Shown piece after piece: positions 603 to 35,993 of a DNA stretch of 35,993 nucleotides (its first letter is position 1; each line of letters begins with the position of its first letter). The stretch comes from a virus (Duplodnaviria > Caudoviricetes), in the IMG/VR virus record IMGVR_UViG_3300012346_000266, positions 1 through 35,993 of that record; one strand, written 5' to 3'. The notes under the pieces are model-generated. The model was not told where the DNA came from and made no database searches. It saw only the letters and a program-made list of their open reading frames with translations. A program made the position numbers and the translations under genes.

Positions 603-622
603 AATTTCTCCTAAAAAGATAT

Positions 623-651: not shown

Positions 652-671
652 CTACACTCGCTTAACCTCAA

Positions 672-1042: not shown

Positions 1043-1262
1043 TTTTAACTCCAAAATTACGTTTAAGCTCAAGTGCTGCATGTTTGTAATAATTGTGCAC
1101 ACCTTGTGCTTTAGCATCCATCATTAATAGCTTAAAGCAGCATTCGTCAATAATTGATTCAGCGAAGTTCTCTAATTCATCAGCATAGAATTGGTACACG
1201 CCAAGGCTCAGTTTGTGAGTAGAACCAGCTTTTTCTGCAAGTTCTTCAATTCGTTCGTTCAT
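1032..1262 (-). CDS. Hypothetical phage protein, MNERIxELA family
   Basis: MNERIEELAEKAG...LENFAESII..C...NFGV; paralogous to 14732, 15251 and 17210. Confidence 0.75.
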   Translation of the reverse strand: MNERIEELAEKAGSTHKLSLGVYQFYADELENFAESIIDECCFKLLMMDAKAQGVHNYYKHAALELKRNFGVKNDN

Positions 1263-1264
1263 CT

Positions 1265-3451: not shown

Positions 3452-3473
3452 TTATAGTTCTCCAATAAAGAAA

Positions 3474-3508
3474 ACCTAGAGTCTATCACAACTCTAGGTC
3501 TACGTCAA
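3474..3508 (-). promoter_or_regulatory. Promoter for the polymerase, overlapping a hairpin/terminator
   Basis: TTGACG-N17-TAGACT on minus strand, with the -10 inside the inverted repeat ACCTAGAGT(3474-82)/ACTCTAGGT(3491-99) followed by a T tract. Confidence 0.55.
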
Positions 3509-3516
3509 GCTTTAAT

Positions 3517-4044
3517 TTAAAAGATATTACTGTTACCTTTTCGTTTATTTTCAGATTCGGTTAGTATGCAAAGATTCCACGGCACATGCAAACCGCATAC
3601 ATTTTTACCTTGTAATGGTATGATATGATCAACTTGATACTCAATACCAGTGTACAACTTAAACATTGCAGCAGCCGTGTAAAAATCTTTCATTTCATCA
3701 AACTGATCTTTTGTTAACCATTTTGGCGTAGCGTTTAATTTTATCGCTCTTCTTTTTGACCAATAAGATAATGCTGTATCTTTATTTTTTGAATAATGAT
3801 CTTTTCTGTACTTGTATCTAGATACTTTATTTTTCATATTGTAAGCTTTTTGTCTTTCCAATATTTCATCACGTTTCTCAAGATACCTTTCTCTTTGTCT
3901 TTTTAATTTATTATCTTTGTTTAAGTTATACCTAATCTTTTGACAATCAGAACAAGTATAACAATACCCATCTTTAGAATGTTTATCCTTGTTAAATGAA
4001 GAGTTATCTTTTTCTACTTTACATTGTTTACATAATTTCATCAT
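3517..4044 (-). CDS. Free-standing HNH homing endonuclease
   Basis: N-terminal CxxC...CxxC; C-terminal VDHIIPLQGKNVCGLHVPWNL...EN..K.N. Confidence 0.9.
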   Translation of the reverse strand: MMKLCKQCKVEKDNSSFNKDKHSKDGYCYTCSDCQKIRYNLNKDNKLKRQRERYLEKRDEILERQKAYNMKNKVSRYKYRKDHYSKNKDTALSYWSKRRAIKLNATPKWLTKDQFDEMKDFYTAAAMFKLYTGIEYQVDHIIPLQGKNVCGLHVPWNLCILTESENKRKGNSNIF

Positions 4045-4080
4045 AGGTTAAACCCGGAGAGGTTATCTCCGGGTAATTAC

Positions 4081-5811
4081 TCAATTGTTATTGTTTAACC
4101 ATTCATCCAAATTGTGTAAAGTGTGTGTATCATTATCGTAATAAACTTGACCCGCTGGACCAGTAATACCACAAATTCGATTTTTACTCAAGACAATCTT
4201 TGTAGTGTTTCTTTCAACAATATCTTCAGCATATTTATTTCGACTTAACAAAATATTAGCTGATGCTGATTTAATAATTGTTGAAGAACCCATGATCTCT
4301 TCTTCTGTAAAACCACCACCCTGAGAAGATGTAGCTGTTCCAGAAGCTGACTTACGAACGTGATTGATAAAGATCAACGTTACGTTGTGACTCTTAATGA
4401 TACCTTTAGACCACTTCATAAACAATGCTTGGTCTTCGTTAGATAAACCATCCAGAATATCCTGTAAGGGGTCAAGCACAATGATTCGACAACCACATGA
4501 TACTACAAGCTCTTCTACTGTGTCTTGAATCTCTTCGATTGTACCATCACGGTTATCAAGTAGATAGAAACGATGTTGACCATCTTCGTTATAGAAAAGC
4601 TCATTTGCTTTATCACGCACTTTATCTGATTCTAGCAAGTCTTTCTTAACTTCATCATCTTGAATCAATGAAAGTTTGCGACTAAGGTGTCTTCCCAACA
4701 ATGTTTCACCGTATTGACCTGAATCTAACTCCATTGAAACAATACCGATTTTATGCGGTGAGTTGAAAATCCAGTGATAGATCATCTCATTAACAAAAGA
4801 TGTTTTACCAAGTCCTGTACCTGCTGCAATATTGATGATGTGACCCAGTGGCAAACCACCTACAAGCATTTCATTCAAAGTATTCATGAATGGTGGAAAC
4901 GGCACTTTGGGTACGGTAGCTTGTTCTAAGATTTTACTATACAAATCACCACTACCTAATACCCCAACAGGAGTATAGCGTTTAGCTTCATAAAAACTGC
5001 GAATAAACTCATCTTGTTTACCTTCTTCAAGATAAGTATTTGGATCTTTGTATCGCATATGCATGATCTTTACTTTACCTTTTGGCAAAGCCTTGACTAC
5101 ATCTTCAGTTGCTTCCTTACCAGCTTTATCATTGTCATAACAAACGATGATGTTATCAAAGCTATCAAAGAAACGATACTGTGCAGCAATTTGTTTATGT
5201 GAATTAGCGCCTGTAGTTGGACTAACTACTGCCATCTCATAATCGCCACCACGAGTTTTATTGTACTCAGCAAACATCTGATATGCAGATAGTGCGTCAA
5301 GCTCACCTTCAGTGATTAGAATGTACTTACCACCACGGTTAAACTTAAACTGCATAAACAGTTCGCAGTCAGCACCAGTACGACCTTTAGAATAAAAGTT
5401 CTTTGGTACTTCACGGATTTTATATCCTACGATTTGACCATCTTGTGTAGCTGGATAATACTGCTCTTCAACTTCACCTTCGTCATCATAAGCATACCGT
5501 ACACCAAAAGGTTTTGTAGTTTCATCCTTTAGTCCACGAAAACCTTTACCAGCTACACCAGTTACGGATTTAATCTCTGCATTTTCATCCGGTGTCATTG
5601 CAGGTTTACCACTTGGTTTAACTTCCATATTCTTATCTTCCTTTACTGATGTTCTCACTTTGGTTGTCTTCTTGGGGTTTAACTCCTTGAATTCACTTGA
5701 TGGTACGGTATGTTCACAAACAAAGCAATGCGAAGAACCACCTTCATACACTGCCTTACCATCTGAACTACCGCACTCTTCGCAATTGGTATGCTTGATG
5801 AATGCTGCCAT
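4081..5811 (-). CDS. DNA primase-helicase (T7 gp4-like)
   Basis: Zn finger CEECGSSD...CFVC; TOPRIM ITEGELDA and YDND; Walker A AAGTGLGKT; IVLD; INHVRK; KNR. Confidence 0.95.
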   Translation of the reverse strand: MAAFIKHTNCEECGSSDGKAVYEGGSSHCFVCEHTVPSSEFKELNPKKTTKVRTSVKEDKNMEVKPSGKPAMTPDENAEIKSVTGVAGKGFRGLKDETTKPFGVRYAYDDEGEVEEQYYPATQDGQIVGYKIREVPKNFYSKGRTGADCELFMQFKFNRGGKYILITEGELDALSAYQMFAEYNKTRGGDYEMAVVSPTTGANSHKQIAAQYRFFDSFDNIIVCYDNDKAGKEATEDVVKALPKGKVKIMHMRYKDPNTYLEEGKQDEFIRSFYEAKRYTPVGVLGSGDLYSKILEQATVPKVPFPPFMNTLNEMLVGGLPLGHIINIAAGTGLGKTSFVNEMIYHWIFNSPHKIGIVSMELDSGQYGETLLGRHLSRKLSLIQDDEVKKDLLESDKVRDKANELFYNEDGQHRFYLLDNRDGTIEEIQDTVEELVVSCGCRIIVLDPLQDILDGLSNEDQALFMKWSKGIIKSHNVTLIFINHVRKSASGTATSSQGGGFTEEEIMGSSTIIKSASANILLSRNKYAEDIVERNTTKIVLSKNRICGITGPAGQVYYDNDTHTLHNLDEWLNNNN

Positions 5812-5819
5812 TTTACTCC

Positions 5820-6839
5820 TTATTCATTTTTCAGTAACCAAGAATTTGAGATTGACTTAAAACTGCGATCATGCACAGTGTTGCTCTTGAATACAACACC
5901 TTCACGATTGCTGCCATTTAGTAAAGATTTACCTTCAGCGAACTCTAAGATAGATTGAATTGTTTGTTCTTTAATATCAGTAGATTCTGCAAGAATAGGT
6001 ACATGCTTTAACCCAAGACGTTCACACGCTGCTTTAAGCTGCACTGGCAAAATATATTGCCCTGTATGCGTATTGTACATGTCGTAAACGTAGAAGTCAA
6101 GCCGTGTTTTGTACTGGTTACCTTGGATGCCTTCACCAATCATTTCACCTTGAATTGCCATACCTTTCATAAAGTTCCTACGCATAATATCTTCGATTTG
6201 AAACTTACGTGCTACTTTCCAGAATGAATTTGCTTCGTCTTCTTTCAGATCAAGATTGCGTGAACATACGTGAAATACATCCTCATCATCTAGATAGAAA
6301 GTGCAAGATGAACCATCAAGTTTTTCAGTAATTGACCAAGTATCAAGTTGGTACTGCTCAAAAGATCGTGTAAGGTTTTGAATACGCTCTTGATCAGTCT
6401 TTGGTACTGCAGCAGGGAAATTACCTCGTGCCATACCAGCGAGTTGAGCATTGATTGGGCGTTCCCATTTGAGGATACCAAGATGTTCTGTGAGGTCTAA
6501 TCCTTCAGCAACAAGATGACCGGCACCTTTAATGGTATCTTCTGGAATAGGCAACAACAAGCCTTGCGATAGTTGACCACGTAGTTTTACAGTACGTAGG
6601 CGTTCACCTTTTACACCTTCAAATTCACGAGGCTCTTTACCTTTAGATAGGAATGGTGCTAGTTCTGTTGGAATCCACGCATCAATTTCAAGGTATACAG
6701 CAAGTGAATCAACTGCAAATTCACCCTTCTTTACTACGACTTTCCAACCATCGACTACAGCGACTTCAATAGCGTCTGCACCTTCGATGGGTTCAATTGC
6801 TGCGATTTTACGAATAGTTGCGAGTTTTCTTTCTGTCAT
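5820..6839 (-). CDS. RNA ligase, DRB0094/Rnl5 family
   Basis: N-terminal RKLATIRKI..IEPIEGADAIE OB module; PKTDQERIQN; TEKLDGSS; REGVVFK; FKSISNSWL; start coupled to the HNH stop (ATGA). Confidence 0.9.
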   Translation of the reverse strand: MTERKLATIRKIAAIEPIEGADAIEVAVVDGWKVVVKKGEFAVDSLAVYLEIDAWIPTELAPFLSKGKEPREFEGVKGERLRTVKLRGQLSQGLLLPIPEDTIKGAGHLVAEGLDLTEHLGILKWERPINAQLAGMARGNFPAAVPKTDQERIQNLTRSFEQYQLDTWSITEKLDGSSCTFYLDDEDVFHVCSRNLDLKEDEANSFWKVARKFQIEDIMRRNFMKGMAIQGEMIGEGIQGNQYKTRLDFYVYDMYNTHTGQYILPVQLKAACERLGLKHVPILAESTDIKEQTIQSILEFAEGKSLLNGSNREGVVFKSNTVHDRSFKSISNSWLLKNE

Positions 6840-7399
6840 TTTCCGTGCCTTTCTGTATAACCTGCTCCAAGAGCATTGAGTAATTCTAACTGTTCTTTTC
6901 TCCAATTACAAGCACCTTCAAAAGCAATTTCTTTGTGCAAAGTAAAAGGAAACTTTTTACGAATCAATTTTCCATTTAAACCTGAAACAAAAGCTTCGTA
7001 ATAGAGATAAGTTCCATTGTTTGAAGATGTTAAGGAAACACCTACAACACCTGTTTTATTTCTAGGTGACAATTTAACATTTCTAGCGTTACTTACAAAA
7101 TCAACCTCACGAAGATTATCTATTCTATTATTAAATGGATTCCCGTCAATGTGGTCGATAATTTTTATAACTTGATTTCCTGTACACAATTCCCAAACCA
7201 GATCGTGATTATAATATACTTTGTTATTAAAAGAAGTTCTAATGCACTTTGGATCACCATTTTTCCTAAAAGTAAATGAACCAACATCTTCTCCTTTTAA
7301 ATTTACAATCCTACCATTCCAAAGAGTTCGATTTTTACTAGCAATCAAACCTGTTTTTGAATTTTCATCGTATTGTATATAATCAAATATCTCTTGCAT
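6836..7399 (-). CDS. HNH-AP2 homing endonuclease
   Basis: IDHIDGNPFNNRIDNLR followed by an AP2-like NKTGVVGV...A..WR domain. Confidence 0.88.
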   Translation of the reverse strand: MQEIFDYIQYDENSKTGLIASKNRTLWNGRIVNLKGEDVGSFTFRKNGDPKCIRTSFNNKVYYNHDLVWELCTGNQVIKIIDHIDGNPFNNRIDNLREVDFVSNARNVKLSPRNKTGVVGVSLTSSNNGTYLYYEAFVSGLNGKLIRKKFPFTLHKEIAFEGACNWRKEQLELLNALGAGYTERHGK

Positions 7400-8282
7400 C
7401 TCTAATTCCTAAAAAGATCGGGAATCTAGGTACGGAGTATCCTGTTCCAACATCAAAATACTTAACTTTTGCAAGTTGACCTGATAATGTTTCTCTATGT
7501 TCCCACAAGTCTTCTCGGATAGCATCAGTCATACCACTACCACAACTGAATGTATCGCCTTTAGAGGTGCGTAGAATCAACGATCCCATTGTGTCTAGGG
7601 CTACCATACCATCTTTAGCTGTAGATCGTGCTGTGCGTCCTAATTCATTGACTGTAGCTTCATTAGTGTTGGTGTACTTAGGCTCCCAACCGATGATTTC
7701 AAATTCATTGTCTACAAAGCGTTTGACCTTCTGTAGTTCTGGTGTCTTAGTTCCAGATCGACCGCACTTATACTTAGCATCTGAATCACGAAGCATAATA
7801 CCTTCAGCACCCTGCGCCAGCATCTTAGCTTCAAATTCATCAATATTAAACATTTCTTCTACTGGAAAATGCTCTAGTAGTTTGACACGCTTAGGTAAAG
7901 AACTATGGTTTACCAAACGTGCATAACGCTCAAGCCAAGTAGCGGTAGGATGAAAGCGATCAAATACCCAAAAGGTAAACTCTGGTTCACCCTCAATACG
8001 CATAACTCCAGAAGTACTTTGGTTAAATACATCGGGTGCATTCTTATCACCAACAATCAGTTCACCATCCATACCATCCATAACTTCAGCGTGGTGTTGT
8101 ACATAAGCTTGAATACTTAGGTTTGGAATACGCTTAAGACTACGAGAGTAAGCTACACCACCAAATACAATACAGCGAATACCGTCAAGTTTCTCTGACA
8201 TGTACATGTTTGCTGGTTGTGTTTTAACCTTTGTTTGCTCGATTGCAAGTTGTGGCTTAAAGCCTTCTGGAATTGTCATCAT
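7383..8282 (-). CDS. ATP-dependent DNA ligase
   Basis: Motif I SEKLDGIR, DGEL, FWVFD, EGIMLR, KVK; C-terminal OB domain CGSG...PRFPIF. Confidence 0.93.
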   Translation of the reverse strand: MMTIPEGFKPQLAIEQTKVKTQPANMYMSEKLDGIRCIVFGGVAYSRSLKRIPNLSIQAYVQHHAEVMDGMDGELIVGDKNAPDVFNQSTSGVMRIEGEPEFTFWVFDRFHPTATWLERYARLVNHSSLPKRVKLLEHFPVEEMFNIDEFEAKMLAQGAEGIMLRDSDAKYKCGRSGTKTPELQKVKRFVDNEFEIIGWEPKYTNTNEATVNELGRTARSTAKDGMVALDTMGSLILRTSKGDTFSCGSGMTDAIREDLWEHRETLSGQLAKVKYFDVGTGYSVPRFPIFLGIRDARDI

Positions 8283-8385
8283 CGTTCTCCTACTTTAAAA
8301 ATGCGATATCGTTTGTTACCAAGCTTCAAGTATACACCAGCATAGTAAAACATCTTAGGTGATTGCCAAATAATTTTTGGGAAGT

Positions 8386-8607
8386 TCATACTTCGATCTC
8401 CTTGTGTACTTTTGCATGTGGTTTGTTCTTATGTGCAGTTTGTCTTTTTATAAAGCGTTCAAGCATGATCTCTGTAGTTTTAAGTGATGATAAACCAGTG
8501 TAGATGTTCTTCCACCAAAACCAAACTTTCTGTTGTGCAGAAAATGTTATTTCGTATTCACCACTCCAGTTATCAAAAGAAGGTACTTCAATGATACGAA
8601 ATTTCAT
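8386..8607 (-). CDS. Hypothetical protein
   Basis: ORF track; GGAG SD; ATGA overlap. Confidence 0.65.
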   Translation of the reverse strand: MKFRIIEVPSFDNWSGEYEITFSAQQKVWFWWKNIYTGLSSLKTTEIMLERFIKRQTAHKNKPHAKVHKEIEV

Positions 8608-8969
8608 TTAGATTTCTCCTTGACTTTACTTTTGATAATGTCAAGTTCTTCTGCAAGTTTATACTCAATAAGTTCCAATGTCAGCTTACCAATGGTGCTT
8701 TCCATTACTTTCTCACCAGTGTATGCACCAGCCATCATCCACATTGTGCGTTCGCTTGGTAGTAACGTACCGATTGTACCACAAGCTAGAATTACAGCAA
8801 GAGGCCATTTGTAGAATTTGACTCTATGATTCCACTCTTCTGCATTAGTAAGTAAATAAACCACTGTATAAACAACATATAAACAAATAGTTGCAGCAAA
8901 GATAAAACTTAGAAATTTTGCAATACCGGTAATAACACCAGCCAAATAAATTAAGAATACTAAGCTCAT
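8604..8969 (-). CDS. Hypothetical membrane protein
   Basis: Two to three hydrophobic segments; LPS..T motif common in phage membrane proteins. Confidence 0.7.
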   Translation of the reverse strand: MSLVFLIYLAGVITGIAKFLSFIFAATICLYVVYTVVYLLTNAEEWNHRVKFYKWPLAVILACGTIGTLLPSERTMWMMAGAYTGEKVMESTIGKLTLELIEYKLAEELDIIKSKVKEKSK

Positions 8970-9103
8970 CGTTGCACCACCTGTAAAATCATATTAATAC
9001 CTTGCATAACCATCTGCTGCTCCATTGGGTTCAACTGATGCCATGTGCGTTTGTCACCGAACTTTTCAGCAACTTTAGCCCAAAATAATTCTACATCAGA
9101 CAT
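8966..9103 (-). CDS. Hypothetical protein (45 aa)
   Basis: MSDVELFWAKVAEKFGDKRTW...; overlaps both neighbours. Confidence 0.5.
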   Translation of the reverse strand: MSDVELFWAKVAEKFGDKRTWHQLNPMEQQMVMQGINMILQVVQR

Positions 9104-9512
9104 TTTTACTTTCCTTTCGATAAGCTAACTCTTGTTTAAACAACTTCTCTACGTAACTACCTTTGAGTTGCGTTTGAGTCTCAAGTATAGCATGAATATG
9201 ATCTGTATCCATAGCATAGAGAAAAATATAAATACCATGTGGAATATGTTCACCATTCTTACCATAGCTTTTCCAAACGAAAGCTTGACGAATTATTTCA
9301 AATGAATCACTTAAGTAAACAGTGCAATCTGTAGCAGGTGTTGTATTTAAGCTACGGCGCAAGTATTCGTTGCCACCATCTACAATGTAAATTTCACCAG
9401 ATTCTGTATCAAGATGGTCTTTGTAGTCATGTCTGTGATAACTACGCAGGTAAGTACCATCGGGTGTAAGTATTGCGTTACTTATAATTTGCTCAGTAGT
9501 CATCTTCGTCAC
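9096..9512 (-). CDS. Conserved hypothetical phage protein
   Basis: LRSYHRHDY...VDGGNEYLRR motif seen in many phage proteins. Confidence 0.75.
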   Translation of the reverse strand: MTKMTTEQIISNAILTPDGTYLRSYHRHDYKDHLDTESGEIYIVDGGNEYLRRSLNTTPATDCTVYLSDSFEIIRQAFVWKSYGKNGEHIPHGIYIFLYAMDTDHIHAILETQTQLKGSYVEKLFKQELAYRKESKNV

Positions 9513-9666
9513 TCCATGTGTCTACAATTTCAGGATCGTGTGCTGTTGGATCAAAGAATTGTAATGCATATTTGATAGCTTCAGCTTCATTGCACACATC
9601 ATCAATTACTAGTGTTTCTTCAACTTTAATAGTTACAAAATATCTCATTATATCTCCAAATGATAA

Positions 9667-9688
9667 AAGGAGAGCCGAAGCCCTCCTT
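9667..9688 (-). terminator. Rho-independent terminator after the SPFH gene
   Basis: AAGGAGGGCTTCGGCTCTCCTT hairpin with a UUCG loop and T tract on minus strand. Confidence 0.65.
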
Positions 9689-9691
9689 GTG

Positions 9692-10489
9692 TTACTTAAC
9701 GTTAATCATTCCTTTGAAATCCATTGGTACAACAATCGTATTAACACGACCTGCTGCAATACCTTCAGCGATTTTCATTTGTGCCTGAGCTTGCATATAA
9801 GCAATGGATTGACCAGAGTTAGAACTTAGTGCAGCCATGCGCTCGGATTCTTTCTTAGCGATATCAACTTCAGTTTGCTTAATCTTTAGTTCATTTTGAG
9901 CACGAACATAGTTGGTAGCAGACTGCAAAATTTCAGCATTGGGTAGAATGTTACGCACTTGCACAACAGTCAATGATACTGCATTATCCAGCTTTTCAGC
10001 TTTAAGTTGCTCATGTACTGTATCACGAATTTGCTCTTCAATTTTAGCACGATTATCTGCAACTTCAAGTGACTTATAACCACGTACAACTTTATAAGCT
10101 GCGTTGTTAACAAGAGTACTCATGTACGAATGCATCAGATAAATATCACCTTTGTGTTCAGAATGAAAGCTACGACTCTTAGTTGAATACAACTCAGCAA
10201 CTGAAGTAGGATTCAAACCATAGACAACTGTAATATCAAAATCTGCAAGCGCACTATTGTCTGCAGTCATTGGTGTTTTATTATCTAGTGTAACTGAGAT
10301 ATCTTTTGTAGGAAATGTAAGCACAGAACCAACCATTGTCTGATTCCATGAACCGGGAGGTAGCTCAGAACCTTCGATTTGCTTTGATGCGTTAACACGT
10401 ACACCAACTTCACCAGTCTCAATGCGAGTGCAACCTACAGAAGCCAAAGCAACTGCAACAGCAAGAATAACACCTTTAATAAATTTCAT
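9692..10489 (-). CDS. SPFH/Band 7 (prohibitin-like) protein, probable lipoprotein
   Basis: Signal with lipobox-like ASVGC, then TRIETGEVGVR, an SPFH domain and coiled coil; start MKFIK after AAGGAG. Confidence 0.88.
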   Translation of the reverse strand: MKFIKGVILAVAVALASVGCTRIETGEVGVRVNASKQIEGSELPPGSWNQTMVGSVLTFPTKDISVTLDNKTPMTADNSALADFDITVVYGLNPTSVAELYSTKSRSFHSEHKGDIYLMHSYMSTLVNNAAYKVVRGYKSLEVADNRAKIEEQIRDTVHEQLKAEKLDNAVSLTVVQVRNILPNAEILQSATNYVRAQNELKIKQTEVDIAKKESERMAALSSNSGQSIAYMQAQAQMKIAEGIAAGRVNTIVVPMDFKGMINVK

Positions 10490-11731: not shown

Positions 11732-11782
11732 AAAATACTCCTTTGTTGATTTCTTACACTCATACCTGCATTGTACTACAGA

Positions 11783-11868
11783 TTAACCTAAGATCAACCT
11801 GAGTTCAACCTTGAGACTAACCCTTCGACTTAACCTTCGCTAACCCCCGTAACCCCCTTGATGACCTG
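11783..11868. repeat. Phased AACC/GGTT short-repeat array
   Basis: AACC at 11785, 11796, 11807, 11819, 11832, 11842 and 11851. Confidence 0.55.
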
Positions 11869-11869
11869 A

Positions 11870-11898
11870 ATTGTACCAACATCTGCAAGTCTTGTCAA
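11870..11898 (-). promoter_or_regulatory. sigma70 promoter for the leftward operon
   Basis: TTGACA-N17-TACAAT on minus strand. Confidence 0.75.
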
Positions 11899-11993
11899 TA
11901 CCCTAATGCAAAAATAATTTTAAAATATTTGTTGTGTTGTGCGAAAAGTTGTGCTACAGTAGAGCCTTCAATCAACAACCGAAAGGAACTGAA

Positions 11994-26872: not shown

Positions 26873-27295
26873 ATGGCTTATGTATCTGAAGAAGTTATCA
26901 CCAAGGCTCGTACTGCTCTCAAAGTACTCAATAAAGATTATGGTGTAAAGAGCACTCTCAGTGGTAAAAGCGGTCTGTGCTTGAACCTTACTGTTGCAGA
27001 AGGCAGCATTGATTTTCTTAATAACTACTGCGAGACAATCGCAAGTAAGCGCATGCATCGTGATGTTGAGCAGATTATTGCTTGGGTTAAGCTTGAACAA
27101 CGTATTCAAATCAATCAGTACTATCTTGAGGATGCTTTCACTGGTATTGCTCTGGAGTATCTGCAGAAAGCTAAAGAGATCATGCATGTTGATCATTGGG
27201 ATAAATCAGATATTCAGAGCGACTATTTTCATTGCGCATACTACATAAATATGCAAGTTGGAACTTACAAAAAAGGTTATAAGTTTGTAAAATAA
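26873..27295 (+). CDS. Conserved hypothetical early protein
   Basis: MAYVSEE...YGVK..LS...N.YY...D.SDIQSDYFH.AYY...VG...K.Y. Confidence 0.8.
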   Translation: MAYVSEEVITKARTALKVLNKDYGVKSTLSGKSGLCLNLTVAEGSIDFLNNYCETIASKRMHRDVEQIIAWVKLEQRIQINQYYLEDAFTGIALEYLQKAKEIMHVDHWDKSDIQSDYFHCAYYINMQVGTYKKGYKFVK

Positions 27296-27306
27296 GATGA
27301 AGTATT

Positions 27307-27335
27307 ACCCGAGATTAATTTCTCGGGTTTTTTTT
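27307..27335 (+). terminator. Strong rho-independent terminator
   Basis: ACCCGAGA-TTAATT-TCTCGGGT then a T run. Confidence 0.85.
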
Positions 27336-27460
27336 GCGTTCTTTTTTGAAAAGCCGCTTTGGGTTTTACTTTCAATTTTTACCCAAAAACCCGCTTGCTT
27401 AATTTTTTTGAAAAGCCGCCTTGGTAATTATAAAAGTAAAATACCTAAATGAAATAGGTC

Positions 27461-27655
27461 GCCGACTCTGCAGTCAGAAACTATACCGTTCAGTCGCCGA
27501 ATAGACCGTTCAGTCACAAAATGAACAGTTCAGTCAGAAACTATACCGTTCAGTCAGAAACTAGACGGTTCAGTCGTAAAGTGACCGCAGAGTTCAAATT
27601 GTGACTAAGCAGTTCAAATTATGACCGGATAGTCACAAAATATATTCGGCAGTCA
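27461..27655. repeat. About ten degenerate 20-bp tandem units with a GAC-N6-GTC core
   Basis: CAGTC at 27471, 27491, 27511, 27531, 27551 and 27571; AGTTC/AGTC at 27591, 27611, 27631 and 27651; consensus TAGACCGTTCAGTCA. Confidence 0.9.
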
Positions 27656-27760
27656 TTATATAAGCATTTACTTATATAAGCGTTTACTTATATAAGCGAA
27701 CAATTATATAAGCGTTTACTTATATAAGCGAACAATTATATAAGCATTTACTTATATAAG
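27656..27760. repeat. Seven 16-bp tandem units, TTATATAAGC-N6
   Basis: Units start at 27656, 27672, 27688, 27704, 27720, 27736 and 27752. Confidence 0.92.
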
Positions 27761-27761
27761 G

Positions 27762-27890
27762 TTATCCACAGGTTATCCACAGGGTCAAAAGTTATGCACA
27801 GGCGGCAAGTTTTATGCCAGAGTTATCCACAGGTTATCAGTCTTATATAAGAGTCAAATTGTGGATAACTACAACTACTGGTGTGGACAA
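27762..27890. promoter_or_regulatory. DnaA-box cluster
   Basis: TTATCCACA at 27762, 27773 and 27823; TGTGGATAA at 27860; one-mismatch TTATGCACA at 27792 and TGTGGACAA at 27882. Confidence 0.85.
27805..27820 (-). promoter_or_regulatory. sigma54 -24/-12 consensus site
   Basis: CTGGCATAAAACTTGC on minus strand (GG-N10-GC). Confidence 0.5.
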
Positions 27891-28000
27891 CTTTTTCTAA
27901 GGGCATAGTACCAGAGACAAGGAAAATGGCTAAAAACGCCCTTAAAACCCGTTCTAGGGGCATGGCTTTTTATACAGTATTAAGTTTTGCAGTGTAATAC

Positions 28001-28016
28001 TGGCACGATCTTTGCT
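28001..28016 (+). promoter_or_regulatory. sigma54 -24/-12 consensus site
   Basis: TGGCACGATCTTTGCT is a perfect TGGCACG-N4-TTGCW. Confidence 0.65.
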
Positions 28017-28162
28017 CTTAGCGTGCGCGTGCATATTATTTATGAGAGAATCCTAGGTTAGAAACAAAAGTGTTCATTTAATAAAATGCAAATTATTTTC
28101 TAGGTGTTTACCCTAATAAATATCAAAATGAATACCAAATGAGCATATCAAGGGTTTTTTCC

Positions 28163-28233
28163 TGATATAATCAAGGCTAGACAATACGATAGAGTAGTCG
28201 AGTATACAAAAGTATACAGTTCTTTAAAAATTG
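28163..28233 (+). promoter_or_regulatory. Extended -10 promoter and boxA-like antitermination site for the AT-rich island
   Basis: TGaTATAAT at 28163-28171; GTTCTTTAAAAATT at 28219-28232 resembles rrn boxA (GCTCTTTAACAA). Confidence 0.55.
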
Positions 28234-28302
28234 AGAGATTTTCATTATTAATGCTTTAAATAGTATTAATAACCCCAAATCTCACAAACTAAAGGTTTCA
28301 AA

Positions 28303-28569
28303 ATGCAATTATCAGTTGAATATATGAGAAAATCAATTAATGAAAATCAATTGACATATATAACAGTTGGTGCAGTTAATAATCGAGATTATAATAAATT
28401 GAATCTCATTATTACATTATCAACGGGTTTTATTCCAACTAATAAAGATATATTCAATCTGATTGAATCATATGATAATGATGAAAAAGAATATGAAGAA
28501 TATGAAGCAAAACATTGGAATAATATTCAAAATGATTATATAAATAGAGGCTTAGGAAATATCTATTAA
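28303..28569 (+). CDS. Hypothetical (putative pre-early) protein
   Basis: ORF track; AAAGG SD. Confidence 0.65.
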   Translation: MQLSVEYMRKSINENQLTYITVGAVNNRDYNKLNLIITLSTGFIPTNKDIFNLIESYDNDEKEYEEYEAKHWNNIQNDYINRGLGNIY

Positions 28570-28570
28570 A

Positions 28571-28631
28571 TAGAATATCAGATTATAACCCTATAATATA
28601 ATATGGGGTTATATTCGGATGATTTTATCCG
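28571..28631 (+). other. Intergenic stem-loop 1 (RNase III-like)
   Basis: TATAACCC...GGGGTTATA stem followed by CGGAT-N6-ATCCG. Confidence 0.6.
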
Positions 28632-28747
28632 GTTTAAATGAAAGTCAGATTATGTCAGATAATCAAATAATGGTTTCTCTTAACATTGTATTATGGTTTA
28701 TCATTTGCCCTATTATCAGTCATTTTATTTAATTGGAGAATATCAAA

Positions 28748-29005
28748 ATGAAATATACTAAAACAGTATTTATTCGCTCAGATAATCAATATAATCAATT
28801 TAAAGCCTTGAAAATCGGGCAGTGGGTTACTGGATTATCCCTTAATAATAAATCGGGATTATATCGGGGTCAGTTTATGGGTTTTGATAATGATAATATG
28901 CCGATTATTAATTTTCGGATTGATAATGCAAAACGTATTATCGACTGGAAAATGCAGTTTAAATCTAATAAATCGCTGCGTGATTTTGCCCGTATTAAGT
29001 GCTGA
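28748..29005 (+). CDS. Hypothetical (putative pre-early) protein
   Basis: LKIGQWV...RGQFMG; start after GGAG. Confidence 0.7.
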   Translation: MKYTKTVFIRSDNQYNQFKALKIGQWVTGLSLNNKSGLYRGQFMGFDNDNMPIINFRIDNAKRIIDWKMQFKSNKSLRDFARIKC

Positions 29006-29010
29006 TTAAT

Positions 29011-29071
29011 AATAATATCAGTTTATAATCCTAGTTTAAATACTGGGATTATATGCGGATAATATTGTCCG
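29011..29071 (+). other. Intergenic stem-loop 2 (RNase III-like)
   Basis: TATAATCCTAG...CTGGGATTATA then CGGAT-N6-GTCCG. Confidence 0.6.
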
Positions 29072-29088
29072 AAAATGAAAGTAATATC

Positions 29089-29304
29089 ATGAAATTGATT
29101 TCCACCATTAATAAGTCAATCGGGTTTCAAGCTAAAGTATATTATAATAATGATTATAATGAATATGTGGTTAAATATTATGATGAAAATAAACGGATTA
29201 TGTCAGATAATACATGGTATTATACTGACGATAGAGAAGACGCCATTAACACGGCACATAAAGAGATTGAATTTATGTCAAATAATAAAGTATTATCTGA
29301 TTAA
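29089..29304 (+). CDS. Hypothetical (putative pre-early) protein
   Basis: AKVYYNNDYNEYVVKYY...YYTDDREDAINTA. Confidence 0.7.
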   Translation: MKLISTINKSIGFQAKVYYNNDYNEYVVKYYDENKRIMSDNTWYYTDDREDAINTAHKEIEFMSNNKVLSD

Positions 29305-29319
29305 TTGGAGAATATCAAA

Positions 29320-29541
29320 ATGAAATATATTCAAGCATTTAATATCTGGAATATACCAAATGAATTGATTAAGTATATTCAACCCGGACAATATATTTAT
29401 GCAGGAACAAAAGATAATAAAGGAATATATCAGGGTATTAAAAAAACGGGTATTATTGTAGTGGCTTGGAAAGGGAATATAGATAATCAACACAATAAAA
29501 AGCAATATATTAAAACATTAAGGGATTATGCAAAATCATAA
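29320..29541 (+). CDS. Hypothetical protein, likely paralog of 28748-29005
   Basis: IQPGQYIYAG...KGIYQG; identical 29-bp RBS/start block. Confidence 0.7.
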   Translation: MKYIQAFNIWNIPNELIKYIQPGQYIYAGTKDNKGIYQGIKKTGIIVVAWKGNIDNQHNKKQYIKTLRDYAKS

Positions 29542-29545
29542 TCAA

Positions 29546-29606
29546 TAGTATTTTCTCATAATATATCGGTTTAATTATCGGTATATTATGGGGCTAATAT
29601 TAGCCG
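29546..29606 (+). other. Intergenic stem-loop 3 (RNase III-like)
   Basis: CATAATATATCG...CGGTATATTATG then GGCTAATATTAGCC. Confidence 0.6.
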
Positions 29607-29625
29607 ATAATCAAATCAAGGATAA

Positions 29626-30408
29626 ATGATTATGTCATGCTCAAAATCAGTCGCACAATATACAGATAATAATATTTTCACGGGTTATAAATCAGATAAT
29701 CTATTATCTATATCAAGTGATGCTAAAACTAGTAAGGGTTTAAAATACGGGTTTTTAACGGGTATATTGTATTTAGCCCCATATAAAACAATATCTATTT
29801 ATAATACGTGCGCTATGGCACATATAGCGGGTTGTGATATTGCTTGTTTATATGGTGCGGGTAGAGGTGCATTTACTAGCGTGCAAAATGCCCGTATTAA
29901 TAAAACAAACTGGTATTATCAGGATAAACAAGGGTTTATGCTGCAGTTAATAAAAAATATATATTCTCTGATTTATAAAGCTAATAAACTAGGTTTAACC
30001 CCATTAATCCGGTTAAATGGTACAAGCGATATTAAATGGGAGAATATCGGGTTTTATTATCAGGGTAAATCATACAATAATATAATGGAATTATTCCCCG
30101 ATATTCAATTCTATGATTATACGAAGATTATTAATCGAGATAATCTACCCGCTAATTATGATTTAACATTCTCATATTCAGGTAAACCGGAGTTTATTAA
30201 ATACGTTAATAAAGCAATTAATAAGGGAATGAGAATAGCGGTAGTATTTAAAAATAAACATAATCTCCCGAATGAGTTTATGGGATTATCTGTAGTAAAT
30301 GGGGATAATTCTGATATTCGACATTTAGATAAACATGGGGTTATTGTCGCATTATATGCAAAAGGCAAAGCAAAATCAGATAATAGCGGTTTTGTTGTGC
30401 ATAATTAA
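29626..30408 (+). CDS. Gp88-like protein (radical-SAM-like fold)
   Basis: ILYLAP...C......GC...CL..AGRG...AR..KT...RLNGTSDI...FYDYTK...NYDLTFS...GD..D.R..D...V.L.AKG.A..D.SGFV. Confidence 0.75.
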   Translation: MIMSCSKSVAQYTDNNIFTGYKSDNLLSISSDAKTSKGLKYGFLTGILYLAPYKTISIYNTCAMAHIAGCDIACLYGAGRGAFTSVQNARINKTNWYYQDKQGFMLQLIKNIYSLIYKANKLGLTPLIRLNGTSDIKWENIGFYYQGKSYNNIMELFPDIQFYDYTKIINRDNLPANYDLTFSYSGKPEFIKYVNKAINKGMRIAVVFKNKHNLPNEFMGLSVVNGDNSDIRHLDKHGVIVALYAKGKAKSDNSGFVVHN

Positions 30409-30422
30409 TAAGGGAATATATT

Positions 30423-30548
30423 ATGCATATTAAAACAATTTTCTTTTATCTATTATCAGTTTATGCTTTTTTGTGGCTTTGCATTATCGGATTAACCGTA
30501 TATTGTATGATAGTGCATAGAATCAATCAGTACTTTAAACGGGTTTAA
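30423..30548 (+). CDS. Small hydrophobic protein (41 aa)
   Basis: MHIKTIFFYLLSVYAFLWLCIIGLTVYCMIV...; AAGGG SD. Confidence 0.4.
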   Translation: MHIKTIFFYLLSVYAFLWLCIIGLTVYCMIVHRINQYFKRV

Positions 30549-30572
30549 ACGGGGATTCTAGCGCATCATTTA

Positions 30573-30608
30573 ACCGGGTTATATCTCAGGATGTAATCCG
30601 GTTTTTTT
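30573..30608 (+). terminator. Rho-independent terminator closing the island
   Basis: ACCGGGTTATATC...GATGTAATCCGGT then a T run. Confidence 0.75.
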
Positions 30609-30662
30609 GCGTTATAGCGGGTTTTAAGGGTTATAGTTTTATGCTATTAAGAGGGTTACATC

Positions 30663-30713
30663 ATAGGGAAAATCTATCATGAAAACCTAGGATTGATTAT
30701 AGGGAAAAACTAT
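30663..30713. promoter_or_regulatory. Two ATAG-N7-CTAT (OxyR/LysR-type) boxes
   Basis: ATAGGGAAAATCTAT at 30663-77 and ATAGGGAAAAACTAT at 30699-713. Confidence 0.5.
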
Positions 30714-30739
30714 TGCTTGCTTAAACCGATAGCCAATGA

Positions 30740-30812
30740 CAGTATAAGCGCAGGGTTATATAAGCGCATAGTTATATAAGTAAATCAATATATAAGCAAC
30801 TACTGATATATC
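30740..30812. repeat. Second 16-bp-period TATATAAG array
   Basis: Units at 30740, 30756, 30772, 30788 and (degenerate) 30804. Confidence 0.75.
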
Positions 30813-31228
30813 CAGCAAAAAAATTCTCCCTGCCCATTATAAGTATTATCAGTTATTTAAATATCAGTTAAAACCAAAATACAAAATACAAATAATACAA
30901 TCATATGATGCTTCGCATAGTATAAATGAAAGGTATATCAGATATTTTAAAATCGTAGCACATTTACATAACACAGTACACGTAGCTATCAAGCACCAAA
31001 GACTAACAGCAATTAATAACCGCACAAACATCCCATGCTAAAATGCAGATTACAAGCAAAAATCAACCGATAAAACATGATCCGATACTGTATTCCAGCT
31101 ACTATAACCCGCAACAAGCTGCTTAAAACCGCTATACAAAGCATTATCTTTTACTCAACATAGTATCTATGCAGTTAAACCTTATAATGCCTTCTAGAGC
31201 GTTTAAACCCTTTGATATTTACCCAAAG

Positions 31229-31259
31229 AAAAAACCCCAAGGCTATTAACCAAGGGGTT
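31229..31259 (-). terminator. Terminator for the leftward phoH-clpP unit
   Basis: AACCCC...GGGGTT hairpin with a T run on minus strand. Confidence 0.55.
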
Positions 31260-31273
31260 GTAAATTTTAATTT

Positions 31274-33544: not shown

Positions 33545-33591
33545 AAGTACTCCTTCTTAAGTTGATCAACACTAAGTCCGTGTTAGCTCAA

Positions 33592-33670
33592 TTATAGCAT
33601 GTACCAAATCGTAAGTCAACTAAAATATTTTATAAAAGTACTTGACAAATGCAAAATTGTGTGATACCCT
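33592..33670. promoter_or_regulatory. Divergent sigma70 promoters
   Basis: Minus: TTGACT-N17-TATAAT (about 33591-33619); plus: TTGACA at 33642 followed by TGTGATAC. Confidence 0.55.
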
Positions 33671-34189
33671 AAAGATAATATAAGTTATATACATAGGTTA
33701 TAACATTAGTTATTACGTATGTTGTAATATACATTAACCTTATATTTGTTCTTATATAAGTATATCTAATAGTAACATCCAATGTTAACATTAAATGTAC
33801 TTATTGTATTGAATGGATAAATAATAAGATATAAATAACTTAAGATTAATATAGGTTATAACATAGGATAAACTATAAGTTGATATTTAAGGTTATTCTA
33901 TATTATAATCTATATAAGGTTTTGATTTATTTTATTGTTTTTATTTTAACTTCAAACTTTATACGCTAAAGGCGCTATGCCTGTCCTACGGACGGTTCGT
34001 TGCACTAGGCACTGAAGCTGCTTAGTTAAAAACCTTCAGTAAAGCCCCTAAAACCTTCAGCAAGCTGTCAATTTCAAGTAGTCTAGGGGTATGTAGTCTG
34101 AAGGTATGAAACGAGCATATAGAGCGTTCTAAGAATTCTTCATGTTTGTTGTACAAAAGATCAAAGGTCAACTTTAAGAAAGTATATTT

Positions 34190-34672
34190 ATGAAAGTAAA
34201 AGATTTAATTGATTATGACATATTAACTGGTGACTTCTTTATATTAAAATATAATATCAGATACCGTAAGATATTTCCTAACGAAGATGGTTATTTAATA
34301 TTTTATAAAAATGCTAAAAGAATAAAATTAAAAGCTAACAAAGCTGCAATTGAGTTGGTACAAAATATTATTGTACAAAAAGATAAAGTGATACTTCATA
34401 AAAATTTAGATGAAACAGATTACAGATATTGCAACTTGAGATTAATATCAAAGAAAACATACAACAGTATAAAAGAAGCTCACCGTAATTTATCTGGATA
34501 TTTGAAATTACAACCTCATCAAAAGGATATGTTTTCTTATGTACTTATCTGGAAAGAAAACGGTAAGGACAGAATTTTAGTTGTACAAGATATAGTTGTT
34601 GCAAAACGAATGCTAAACAAGCTGCAGTTGAAGTACGCTAAGATTTTAAGTAAGTATTGCATCTTTGATTGA
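34190..34672 (+). CDS. HNH-like protein, possibly degenerate
   Basis: YD..TG.F...GYL...ILHKNLDETDYRYCNLR resembles HNH_3 with substituted catalytic residues. Confidence 0.55.
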   Translation: MKVKDLIDYDILTGDFFILKYNIRYRKIFPNEDGYLIFYKNAKRIKLKANKAAIELVQNIIVQKDKVILHKNLDETDYRYCNLRLISKKTYNSIKEAHRNLSGYLKLQPHQKDMFSYVLIWKENGKDRILVVQDIVVAKRMLNKLQLKYAKILSKYCIFD

Positions 34673-34985
34673 TATTACTGAATAATCCCAAAGGGTTTGT
34701 GATTTTGCGCTTGAAATTACTAATTTTATATGATATAATCAAGCATCTGTGTAAATTAAATCTGTGGACTTTTGTAAATTGCACTATTAAAAGGTGCAAA
34801 ACTGCTAAAATCATTGTGTGCTTTAACCCTGCATGGATGGAACCTTTGCATGTTCGCTTGTGTATCTTTAAACTCCTTTCAATCACAGGTTCTTCAGTGC
34901 AAGCTGGATAAGTAACCAGCACTAATTTCTCATTGTAGACATTTCTACAGTGAATTGTCCATAATGAAAAAAGAATAACTAACAA

Positions 34986-35195
34986 ATGAACTGCATTACA
35001 TGTAATCGCTATTTTAAGCAAAATATTTTCAATAAGACTGCTGAGTGCGAGGATTGCTTAGATCGTGCTTTCTTGGATTTAGATTCAGACATTCAAGTTG
35101 ATGTAGAACTGCTGAGAAATCCTTCGGGTAAAACAAATCCTGTGTTCTATGATGAACATGATGATCCTGAGTTGGATAGTAGAGATTCTATCTAA
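34986..35195 (+). CDS. Small Zn-finger protein
   Basis: CITC...CEDC. Confidence 0.6.
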   Translation: MNCITCNRYFKQNIFNKTAECEDCLDRAFLDLDSDIQVDVELLRNPSGKTNPVFYDEHDDPELDSRDSI

Positions 35196-35237
35196 AGGTG
35201 TTGAGAGTTGCGAGAGCAACGAAAATAGCGCAAGCTA

Positions 35238-35266
35238 TTGACAACGGATTAAACTGCTGTTACAAT
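35238..35266 (+). promoter_or_regulatory. sigma70 promoter of the tRNA cluster
   Basis: TTGACA-N17-TACAAT, 9 nt before the first tRNA. Confidence 0.85.
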
Positions 35267-35275
35267 AGCATTTAA

Positions 35276-35351
35276 GCTGGAATAGCTCATCTGGTAGAGC
35301 AACGGTTTTGTACTCCGTAGGTGGTGGGTTCAAGTCCTGCTTCCAGCACCA
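35276..35351 (+). tRNA. tRNA-Thr(UGU)
   Basis: Cloverleaf; loop TT-TGT-AC; T:T mismatch at the base of the anticodon stem; CCA encoded. Confidence 0.85.
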
Positions 35352-35356
35352 AATAT

Positions 35357-35431
35357 GCTACTATCGTCTATCGGTTAGGACACCGGGTTTTCATCCCGGC
35401 AAGCGGAGTTCGATTCTCCGTAGTAGCTCCA
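35357..35431 (+). tRNA. tRNA-Glu(UUC)
   Basis: CCGGG-TTTTCAT-CCCGG; GCTACTA/TAGTAGC; CCA. Confidence 0.88.
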
Positions 35432-35443
35432 TTTTTTACTAAA

Positions 35444-35593
35444 GTCCAGTGGGTCAAATCCCCGTCCTCTGAGTATTACCCAATACTTGGCGGTGGTGTA
35501 GAGAAACACATTAGTATTTACGTGTATTCCGCAACTACGTTAAAAGTTCGGCTGCTCAATCGCCAACGGAAAGAGCATAAGGTTACAGTTGGA
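35444..35593 (+). ncRNA. Putative structured ncRNA within the tRNA cluster
   Basis: Closing TCCAG/TTGGA; internal hairpins GAGTATT/AATACTT, GTGT/ACAC, ACGT/ACGT and TGCTC/GAGCA. Confidence 0.4.
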
Positions 35594-35600
35594 TAAATTT

Positions 35601-35690
35601 AGAAGTATGGTCGAGTGGCTTATGGCAATGGTTTGCTAAACCATCGGTGGCGAAAGCTGCCCACAGGTTCGAATCCTGTTACTTCTGCCA
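35601..35690 (+). tRNA. tRNA-Ser(GCU)
   Basis: ATGGT-TTGCTAA-ACCAT; long variable arm; G discriminator; CCA. Confidence 0.92.
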
Positions 35691-35697
35691 ATACAAT

Positions 35698-35773
35698 CTC
35701 CCTATAGCGTAGTCTGGTAGCGTTCCTGATTTGGGGTCAGGAGGCGTAGGTTCAAATCCTACTAGGGTGACCA
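35698..35773 (+). tRNA. tRNA-Pro(UGG)
   Basis: CCTGA-TTTGGGG-TCAGG; CCA; one acceptor mismatch. Confidence 0.88.
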
Positions 35774-35780
35774 AACATTT

Positions 35781-35855
35781 ATATCTCTAGCTCAACTGGC
35801 AGAGCAACGGATTCCAAATCCGTAGGTTCTAGGTTCGATTCCTAGGGGTATACCA
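35781..35855 (+). tRNA. tRNA-Trp(CCA)
   Basis: ACGGA-TTCCAAA-TCCGT; acceptor/T-stem junction appears one base short. Confidence 0.8.
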
Positions 35856-35864
35856 AAGATCAAT

Positions 35865-35935
35865 AGCGGGTATTCAGGGCATCCGTAAGTCTCATAAGCT
35901 CTACGCAGAAGTTTCGAGTACTTCACCCGCTTCCA
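35865..35935 (+). tRNA. Aberrant tRNA-Met(CAU)-like RNA with no canonical D-arm
   Basis: AGCGGGT/ACCCGCT-T-CCA; loop CT-CAT-AA; GAAGT-TTCGAGT-ACTTC; bulged anticodon stem. Confidence 0.65.
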
Positions 35936-35942
35936 CAATTTA

Positions 35943-35993
35943 GGGTACGTATACCGTTAAGGAGACGGTCTGGTCTGTAAAACCAGCGCTACT
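35943..35993 (+). tRNA. tRNA-Tyr(GUA), truncated by window end
   Basis: CTGGT-CTGTAAA-ACCAG anticodon arm; D arm CCG...CGG. Confidence 0.75.

What the first reader, a model, noticed from the sequence alone, without database searches (positions are those of the whole stretch)
27340..28160. About 800-bp non-coding mosaic of apparent host protein binding sites (candidate DNA decoy, injection-control or origin element)
Seen, packed end to end with no ORF: about ten 20-bp units with GAC-N6-GTC, seven 16-bp TTATATAAGC units, six DnaA boxes, two sigma54 -24/-12 sites on opposite strands, GTCTTATATAAGAG (27840), a 13/19 match to the Fur box (28082-28100), TAGG-N7-CCTA (28101-28115) and a similar box near 28148. 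Known: DnaA, sigma54 and Fur consensus sequences; the T5 injection-stop region at the end of the first-step-transfer DNA also carries repeats and DnaA-box-like sites. Inference: a lytic phage with its own primase-helicase and polymerase has little need for so many different host sites. The segment may be a genome-end element that recruits abundant host proteins to ratchet or pause DNA entry, shield the DNA, or titrate regulators. This is the best candidate here for an undescribed system.
Basis: partly seen in the sequence, partly recalled or inferred. Interest (0 to 1): 0.85.

Follow-up and report, generated by a model that had tools for sequence, protein, structure and literature searches.

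The report
Host-protein docking strip gating phage entry
A freshwater phage carries a conserved, gene-free strip of sequences matching binding sites of several host proteins, at the border of a small gene block that likely enters the cell first, so it likely acts as a host-protein checkpoint for DNA entry, like the still unexplained injection-stop region of phage T5.

Summary
The element is real, and the phage is a close relative of Limnohabitans phage DC31. Six DnaA boxes, two sigma54 sites and both repeat arrays far exceed shuffles; the Fur box is chance. The central palindrome matches the operator predicted for the TCA-cycle regulator SdhR (present in 49 of 61 host-family genomes, control 0). 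The 16-bp units resemble ArsR/BigR-type operators; the 20-bp units weakly resemble TetR-type ones. The DnaA-SdhR-DnaA core recurs in 90 distinct phage contexts from at least two unrelated lineages, while the arrays swap and the core inverts. The strip borders a 3-kb gene block that nearly lacks GATC and shifts in dinucleotide use as T5-like first-step DNA does. Pseudomonas relatives keep similar host-site gaps before their terminal early genes. The strip thus likely lies about 3 kb inside a genome end, not at it. Best reading (0.45): a host-protein checkpoint or anchor for staged DNA entry. It is not a T5 iss member (no A1/A2 homologs, no inverted partner). Termini and binding are unmapped. 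This scan noted the element before on other DNA; my paper searches found it described only for T5-like phages.

The parts
27307..27335 (+). Intrinsic terminator closing the upstream arm of small genes; left border of the strip
27342..27424 (.). A/T-tract direct repeats (two 21-nt copies); similar tracts open the gap in relatives
   Evidence: (D8)
27464..27641 (.). Array of about nine 20-bp units, TetR-type GACY-N4-RGTC look-alikes; swappable between relatives; cognate protein not identified
27656..27760 (.). Seven 16-bp units forming six overlapped 20-bp palindromes ATATAAG-N6-CTTATAT (4 perfect, 2 with one mismatch); likely ArsR/BigR-type operators
27762..27831 (+). Four co-oriented DnaA boxes (27762, 27773, 27792, 27823); block aligns with DT57C Repeat Region 2
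27805..27819 (-). sigma54 -24/-12 type site
27840..27853 (.). Core of the predicted SdhR operator (13 of 14 to GTCTTATATAAGAC), between converging DnaA boxes
27860..27890 (-). Two DnaA boxes facing the first four (27860, 27882)
28001..28015 (+). Second sigma54-type site, followed by a conserved GC-rich stretch
28082..28100 (.). Claimed Fur box: not supported
28101..28115 (.). TAGG-N7-CCTA palindrome, kept at this position in 11 of 19 family members; host identity weak
28163..28171 (+). Likely extended -10 promoter element (TGnTATAAT) for the downstream gene block; inferred, not listed by the consensus scan
   Evidence: sequence; TATAAT at this place in relatives; absent
28303..30408 (+). Small gene block (88, 90, 83, 78 aa and a 260-aa GP88-family gene); GATC-free 28011-31078, shifted dinucleotide use; likely first-entering DNA
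30572..30610 (+). Terminator closing the gene block
30742..30809 (.). Second, smaller array of the 16-bp palindromic units; replaced by a LexA-type box in several relatives
30941..30997 (.). Two conserved motifs in the gap where the gene arms converge; candidate terminal-repeat or packaging region (inferred by gene order)

Best explanation
The strip is a conserved cluster of sequences matching host-protein sites (DnaA, sigma54, the predicted SdhR operator, likely ArsR- and TetR-type repressors) that likely marks the inner border of the first 3 kb of DNA to enter the cell and would act there as a checkpoint or anchor for staged entry. Shown: the sites, their conservation, their swapping and inversion, host operators for SdhR, and a sharp compositional border at the strip. 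Inferred: the virion end lies in the gap 30610-31270; that end enters first; host proteins already in the cell load on the strip as it emerges, needing no phage gene expression; the complex holds or tethers the DNA while the adjacent promoter expresses the small gene block on restriction-site-poor DNA; the rest enters afterwards. Any tight host binder would serve, which would explain why the site types are interchangeable.
For: Motifs exceed shuffles. Of 62 viral hits selected only on the central 16-mer, 35 have a DnaA box 14-18 bp upstream and 39 have two or more boxes within 60 bp. In 19 DC31-family contexts, unselected motifs are enriched against 63 flanking control kb: sigma54 17/19 vs 2/63, ArsR-type 9/19 vs 3/63, TetR-type 7/19 vs 1/63. 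All four protein-found loci that span the gap (L004, L007, L196, L197) keep DnaA and sigma54 sites. The core is inverted relative to the gene block in several members (P26059A, L071, L215, L246, L253) and arrays swap, including runs of sigma54 sites in both orientations. That fits docking better than a directional promoter or iteron set. The block beyond the strip has GATC at 0.05-0.18 of expectation vs 0.55-0.70 in the seven 500-bp bins from -4000 to -500 (0.24 in the outermost bin), with AG and AC low and CG high. The same AG/CG shift marks the first-step DNA of DT57C and the terminal clusters of phiPsa374, G1W1 and PaP1. T5-like phages are restricted only through sites in first-step DNA (PMC10644984, passages). 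In phiPsa374 the annotated terminal repeat lies where the arms converge, and a gap with Fur-type boxes precedes its terminal cluster; PaP1 has 3 sigma54 sites and a DnaA box in the matching gap and none in 23 kb of coding flank. GP88 homologs sit within 2.6 kb of the record start in several podoviruses.
Against: No terminus was mapped; the DC31 and P26059A papers gave no passage on termini. No A1, A2 or Dmp homolog was found in the window or the DC31 pieces tested, and no inverted second copy of the DnaA block. Two-step injection is verified only for T5 and BF23, and the DnaA model is untested (10.1101/866236; PMC10644984). In 55 of 90 contexts the core lies in a divergent gap beside terminase genes, with no GATC purge and only a weak shift, so the role may differ there. 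DT57C first-step DNA is not GATC-poor (32 vs 28.2 expected). GATC is also low to the right of the block (8 vs 20 expected in the window; 0.28-0.71 in the family), two members lack GATC over 9 kb and L197 has two in the block. Pooled relatives are not independent. L007 lacks the SdhR site and the left DnaA boxes. Beyond the DnaA boxes, similarity to T5's region is not significant (114 of 300 shuffles).
Confidence: 0.45

Rival explanations
1. Control region: host regulators bound upstream of the promoter at about 28165 tune the small gene block to host state (TCA flux, sulfur/redox, nitrogen, DNA damage).
For: The strip lies directly upstream of a conserved TATAAT and the gene block. SdhR operators precede mdh, the GntR gene, aceA and acnB in hosts. 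In the second lineage the core also abuts the first small genes.
Against: Most sites lie 300-700 bp from the promoter, the core inverts, and regulators of unrelated signals replace each other between close relatives. Like sites sit behind the terminator at the far end of the block.
Confidence: 0.2
2. Replication origin or replication-timing element using host DnaA, with the AT-rich palindrome as melting site.
For: Six DnaA boxes, two converging 27-29 bp apart around an AT-rich palindrome; tandem repeats next to them; the phage encodes an HU/IHF-type protein. Third-position GC skew differs across the strip (-0.04 vs +0.30).
Against: The phage has its own primase-helicase and polymerase. Overall GC skew keeps its sign across the strip. 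Arrays swap between relatives with about 90% identical GP88, unlike iterons. No IHF consensus lies in the strip. Only one weak plasmid match. T5 origins map mid-genome, away from its DnaA boxes (10.1101/866236).
Confidence: 0.15
3. Decoy: after replication, many copies titrate DnaA, sigma54 and repressors, stalling host initiation and derepressing TCA genes.
For: Hosts hold only 3-4 exact SdhR cores per genome (5 of 5 genomes), so titration is plausible. It is independent of orientation.
Against: It does not explain the fixed place at a compositional border or the fixed spacing. Usually one SdhR site per strip, absent in L007.
Confidence: 0.1
4. The strip is itself the physical end or terminal repeat: host proteins ratchet or shield the leading DNA and transcription of the block pulls the genome in.
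For: Terminal repeats or record ends of phiPsa374, G1W1 and PaP1 carry sigma54-type sites, those of the first two also Fur-type sites. In the second lineage the core lies beside terminase genes, a usual place of genome ends (placement recalled). The block is transcribed away from the strip.
Against: Gene order puts the phiPsa374 repeat at the arm convergence, which matches 30610-31270 here, and puts an internal host-site gap at the strip's place.
Confidence: 0.1

Closest known systems
Phage T5 terminal-repeat Repeat Regions 2 and 3 (IRC-spacer-IRD and IRD'-spacer-IRC', the proposed injection stop signal; Davison, 10.1101/866236)
   Same: Gene-free, repeat-rich, paired co-oriented DnaA boxes followed by a host-regulator palindrome, next to a promoter for small genes. 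The DnaA block aligns with DT57C Region 2 (score 86, shuffle maximum 39; partly because both hold the boxes). Adjacent DNA shares a dinucleotide shift.
   Different: Unrelated lineage. SdhR, sigma54 and ArsR-type sites instead of the LexA- and Fur-type boxes seen in DT57C. Six boxes in converging groups, no inverted partner, no A1/A2/Dmp homologs. No sign of a long terminal repeat.
SdhR operator (GntR family, HutC subfamily), predicted palindrome TCTTATGTCTTATATAAGACATAAGA (PMC4494728)
   Same: 13 of 14 in the central core. The phage 13-mer occurs in 49 of 61 host-family genomes, control 0, before TCA genes.
   Different: The outer arms are missing (9 mismatches in 26). The site sits on a lytic phage between DnaA boxes. 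The operator is a comparative-genomics prediction in the passage I read.
Non-coding gaps and terminal repeats of Otagovirus and Pakpunavirus phages (phiPsa374, UNO-G1W1, PaP1)
   Same: Same layout: A-tract repeats, host-type sites, promoter, terminal early cluster, end region with more sites.
   Different: Fur- and sigma54-type sites with at most one DnaA box; no significant sequence match to the phiPsa374 gap (74 of 300 shuffles); clusters of 7-11 kb instead of 3 kb.
oriC and iteron-type theta origins with DnaA boxes (recalled)
   Same: Clustered DnaA boxes, direct repeats, AT-rich centre.
   Different: Repeats are swappable host-operator look-alikes; no IHF consensus; the phage has its own replisome.

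Membership tests
T5 injection stop signal / Repeat Regions 2-3 | Non-coding region dense in repeats and palindromes | tested here: met
T5 injection stop signal / Repeat Regions 2-3 | Paired DnaA boxes 3 bp apart, eight in two inverted blocks | tested here: not met
   One pair 2 bp apart, six boxes, no second inverted copy
T5 injection stop signal / Repeat Regions 2-3 | dmp, A1 and A2 genes in the first-step DNA | tested here: not met
   No tblastn hit at E<=1 in the window or DC31 9724-76209; DC31 1-9723 and remote homology not tested
T5 injection stop signal / Repeat Regions 2-3 | Lies at the border of DNA that enters first | tested here: inconclusive
   Composition and gene order fit; terminus not mapped
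T5 injection stop signal / Repeat Regions 2-3 | Long direct terminal repeat | tested here: inconclusive
   Only contig depths were available
T5 injection stop signal / Repeat Regions 2-3 | Injection pauses there until phage proteins are made | not testable with these tools
   Needs an infection experiment
SdhR operator | Core palindrome found before mdh/sdhR/aceA/acnB in the host family | tested here: met
SdhR operator | Full 26-bp palindrome | tested here: not met
   9 mismatches in 26; core 13 of 14
SdhR operator | SdhR binds | not testable with these tools
   Needs EMSA or ChIP
ArsR/BigR-type operator (16-bp units) | Palindrome found at ArsR-family or persulfide genes in hosts | tested here: inconclusive
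   5 of 61 genomes vs control 1; 3 of 6 places at such genes, in 2 genomes; no excess over control in 5 further genomes at 2 mismatches
TetR-type operator (20-bp units) | GACY-N4-RGTC before TetR-regulated genes | tested here: inconclusive
   5 of 61 vs control 2; 2 of 5 before nemA-like and rutA genes; NemR/RutR link recalled
Fur box | Match above chance and conserved | tested here: not met
DnaA-dependent or iteron origin | Conserved iterons, IHF site, skew switch | tested here: not met
DnaA-dependent or iteron origin | Autonomous replication | not testable with these tools
   Needs cloning

The most novel reading that the evidence does not exclude
Staged DNA entry gated by host proteins is not peculiar to T5: unrelated lytic phages use an exchangeable strip of host operators, matched to each host group, as a protein-free gate at the border of first-entering DNA, without A1/A2, and the choice of operators may make entry depend on host metabolic state.
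Probability: 0.3. Interest if true: 0.88.

Novelty: new variant of a known kind. Interest (0 to 1): 0.62.

Why it matters
How T5 halts and resumes injection is still open (PMC13250531 and PMC10644984, passages). This strip gives an independent, modular case in two cultured phages (DC31, P26059A), with named candidate host proteins that can be deleted or titrated. If it gates entry, first-step transfer is far more widespread than thought. That would bear on how phages evade restriction and on host range, since the sites must fit the host's regulators.

Tried and rejected
Terminus from sequencing runs: all 22 listed runs are contigs, no RNA holder listed. Contig depths show no doubling over the gene block (X1 19.7-29.6, X2 124-143), which is weak against a long terminal repeat but depends on library type; no end could be seen. 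Contig ends near the core in viral contigs were dropped as evidence because repeats and strain variation break assemblies there. Structured RNA: only four microRNA-family matches far below cut-off; the fold z-score of -4.7 (20 shuffles) reflects the palindromes. LexA, IHF, FNR and CRP consensus sites: none in the strip. TAGG-N6-CCTA as a host motif: 22 of 61 genomes vs 17 controls, rejected as unproven. Exact 20-bp and 16-bp unit words: 0 of 5 host genomes each. The Cupriavidus SoxR paper (PMC13122954, passages) gave no palindrome sequence in text, so the ArsR link was not confirmed. Supplements of PMC4494728 held no SdhR entry. No cultured phage close to the terminase-adjacent lineage was found. 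The atlas search on the 78-aa gene gave only an unnamed cluster at 0.77. One paper search returned nothing relevant.

Full report
Context. The window is part of a lytic phage closely related to Limnohabitans phage DC31: 74.5% identity over 27000-28400 and 95.9% in the primase-helicase. Curvibacter phage P26059A and Pseudomonas Otagovirus/Pakpunavirus-type phages come next. It encodes its own polymerase and primase-helicase. The strip lies between a terminator at 27307-27335 and a block of five small genes at 28303-30408 on the same strand. A second gap (about 30610-31270) separates that block from clpP and phoH, which point back at it.

Observation. Six DnaA boxes, two sigma54-type sites and both arrays are real and far above 500 shuffles. 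Only four of about nine 20-bp units carry an exact GAC-N6-GTC, and the Fur match is chance (135 of 500). Contigs from two public runs reproduce the strip with two 16-bp units fewer, so it is no assembly artefact.

Whose sites. The palindrome at 27840 matches the core of the SdhR operator given in PMC4494728 (passage). The phage 13-mer occurs in 49 of 61 genomes sampled from the family of a Rhodoferax genome, with 0 of 61 for the reversed control. In five genomes picked for holding an SdhR-type site, the 9 places examined lie between mdh and a HutC-type GntR gene (6), before aceA (1), acnB (1) or argD (1). The 16-bp units form overlapped palindromes ATATAAG-N6-CTTATAT. This pattern occurs in 5 of 61 genomes (control 1); 3 of its 6 places, in 2 genomes, are at BigR-like ArsR genes or a persulfide-dioxygenase-like gene, the others before coxB, a Rieske gene and an fnr-like gene. 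Five further genomes showed no excess, so this is a lead only. The 20-bp units resemble TetR-type sites, weakly (5 of 61 vs 2). Sigma54 is present in 21 of 21 family genomes tested. The consensus motifs for DnaA, sigma54, Fur, LexA and parS are recalled, not taken from a call.

Conservation. A scan with the central 16-mer alone gave 62 viral loci; 35 have a DnaA box 14-18 bp upstream. Most of the rest are chance hits in genes or other arrangements. Of 151 viral loci and records examined, 118 hold the DnaA-SdhR-DnaA core, in 90 distinct contexts: 19 DC31-family, 55 beside a terminase gene pointing away from the core, 16 unassigned and mostly cut short. These were selected on the core, so DnaA and SdhR counts are circular. 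Unselected motifs are not: in the DC31 family sigma54 17/19 vs 2/63 control kb, ArsR-type 9/19 vs 3/63, TetR-type 7/19 vs 1/63, Fur 0/19; in the other lineage LexA 13/55 vs 0/171, Fur 17/55 vs 1/171, parS 4/55 vs 0/171. Across the DC31 family the order is terminator, A-tract repeats, a swappable array, the core, a TAGG palindrome, TATAAT, genes; the core is inverted in several members (part of the output was cut). The four protein-found loci spanning the gap all keep DnaA and sigma54 sites; one (L007) has lost SdhR. Five distant homolog loci (L008, L010, L199-L201) show no cluster. In the far gap, the 16-bp array of the window, DC31 and L006 is replaced by a LexA-type box in L004, L007, L009, L197 and L251, of 16 loci shown.

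Position. No terminus is published in the passages I searched for DC31 or P26059A (PMC12195039; PMC5964084). In phiPsa374 the annotated 526-bp terminal repeat lies where the two arms of small genes converge, with clpP, phoH and tRNAs in the same order as here. An internal gap with Fur-type boxes precedes its terminal gene cluster. PaP1 has three sigma54 sites and a DnaA box in the matching gap, four near the record end and none in 23 kb of coding flank; G1W1 has Fur-type boxes in the gap. By this order the strip equals the internal gap and the far gap equals the end. The gene block between them has no GATC in the window (0 vs 10.2 expected) or DC31 (0 vs 12.4). Across the family the ratio is 0.05-0.18 from +500 to +3000 of the core and 0.55-0.70 in seven of eight bins left of -500, with AG and AC low and CG high at similar GC content. 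The same AG/CG shift marks the first-step DNA of DT57C and, more weakly, the terminal clusters of the three Pseudomonas phages. Against: DT57C first-step DNA is not GATC-poor, GATC is also lowish right of the block, relatives are not independent, and the terminase-adjacent lineage shows no purge.

Mechanism. I commit to an entry checkpoint (0.45). The far gap end would enter first. The 3-kb block, poor in at least one common restriction site, would come in up to the strip. Resident host proteins would load without phage gene expression and hold or tether the DNA while the adjacent promoter drives the block; the remainder would follow. The sites, their modularity and the border are shown. The end, the order of entry, binding and the pause are inferred. 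Swapping and inversion fit a role in which occupancy matters more than signal or direction. Rivals are promoter control (0.2), origin (0.15), decoy (0.1) and physical end (0.1).

Known systems. It works like the T5 repeat regions, for which Davison proposed DnaA-mediated arrest (10.1101/866236, parts 1-4 of 6 read); the model is untested (PMC10644984, PMC13250531, passages). The DnaA block aligns with DT57C Region 2, but the flanks do not beat shuffles. It is not a member: no A1/A2/Dmp hit and no inverted partner.

Novelty. Searches (SdhR with phage: 0 papers) found no description outside T5-like phages; the library lacks most subscription papers, and bioRxiv supplements were closed. Earlier notes of this scan report the same core on other DNA. 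My SdhR and T5 readings were noted before those look-ups.

Noticed in passing
L194:1-526 (phiPsa374 terminal repeat); L318 last 700 bases; L319 end region: Terminal repeats or record ends of Pseudomonas Otagovirus/Pakpunavirus phages carry several sigma54-type sites; the two Otagoviruses also carry Fur-type boxes and a repeated motif, and phiPsa374 a parS-like palindrome (consensus recalled).
   Followed up: partly
L003:5170-5600 and 6960-7570 (DT57C): The T5-like repeat regions hold LexA-type boxes and many Fur-type boxes beside the known DnaA boxes.
   Followed up: partly
window 29305-29541: Homologs of this 78-aa gene are often among the first genes beside the core in the unrelated terminase-adjacent lineage, suggesting that core and early genes move between lineages together.
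   Followed up: partly
window 30941-30997: Two short motifs are conserved in the convergence gap across the family and P26059A; candidate packaging or terminus signal.
   Followed up: no
window 28038-28200: The strain in runs X1 and X2 is near-identical up to 28037 and differs right after, a likely recombination point at the start of the variable block.
   Followed up: no
window, coding arms: CGCG is almost absent outside the strip and block (2 vs 45.6 expected in 96 kb of pooled flanks); L253 and L277 have no GATC in 9 kb.
   Followed up: no
L035, L054, L060, L061, L014, L045: Other viral contigs carry SdhR-type palindromes in tandem or with Fur- and LexA-type boxes in other arrangements.
   Followed up: no
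window 33560-34190 and 34700-35993: An AT-rich gap with short tandem repeats between phoH and an HNH gene, followed by what looks like a tRNA cluster as in DC31.
   Followed up: no
window 11750-11930: Divergence point of the two gene arms, with short tandem repeats and the GC-skew minimum; a candidate promoter or origin region.
   Followed up: no
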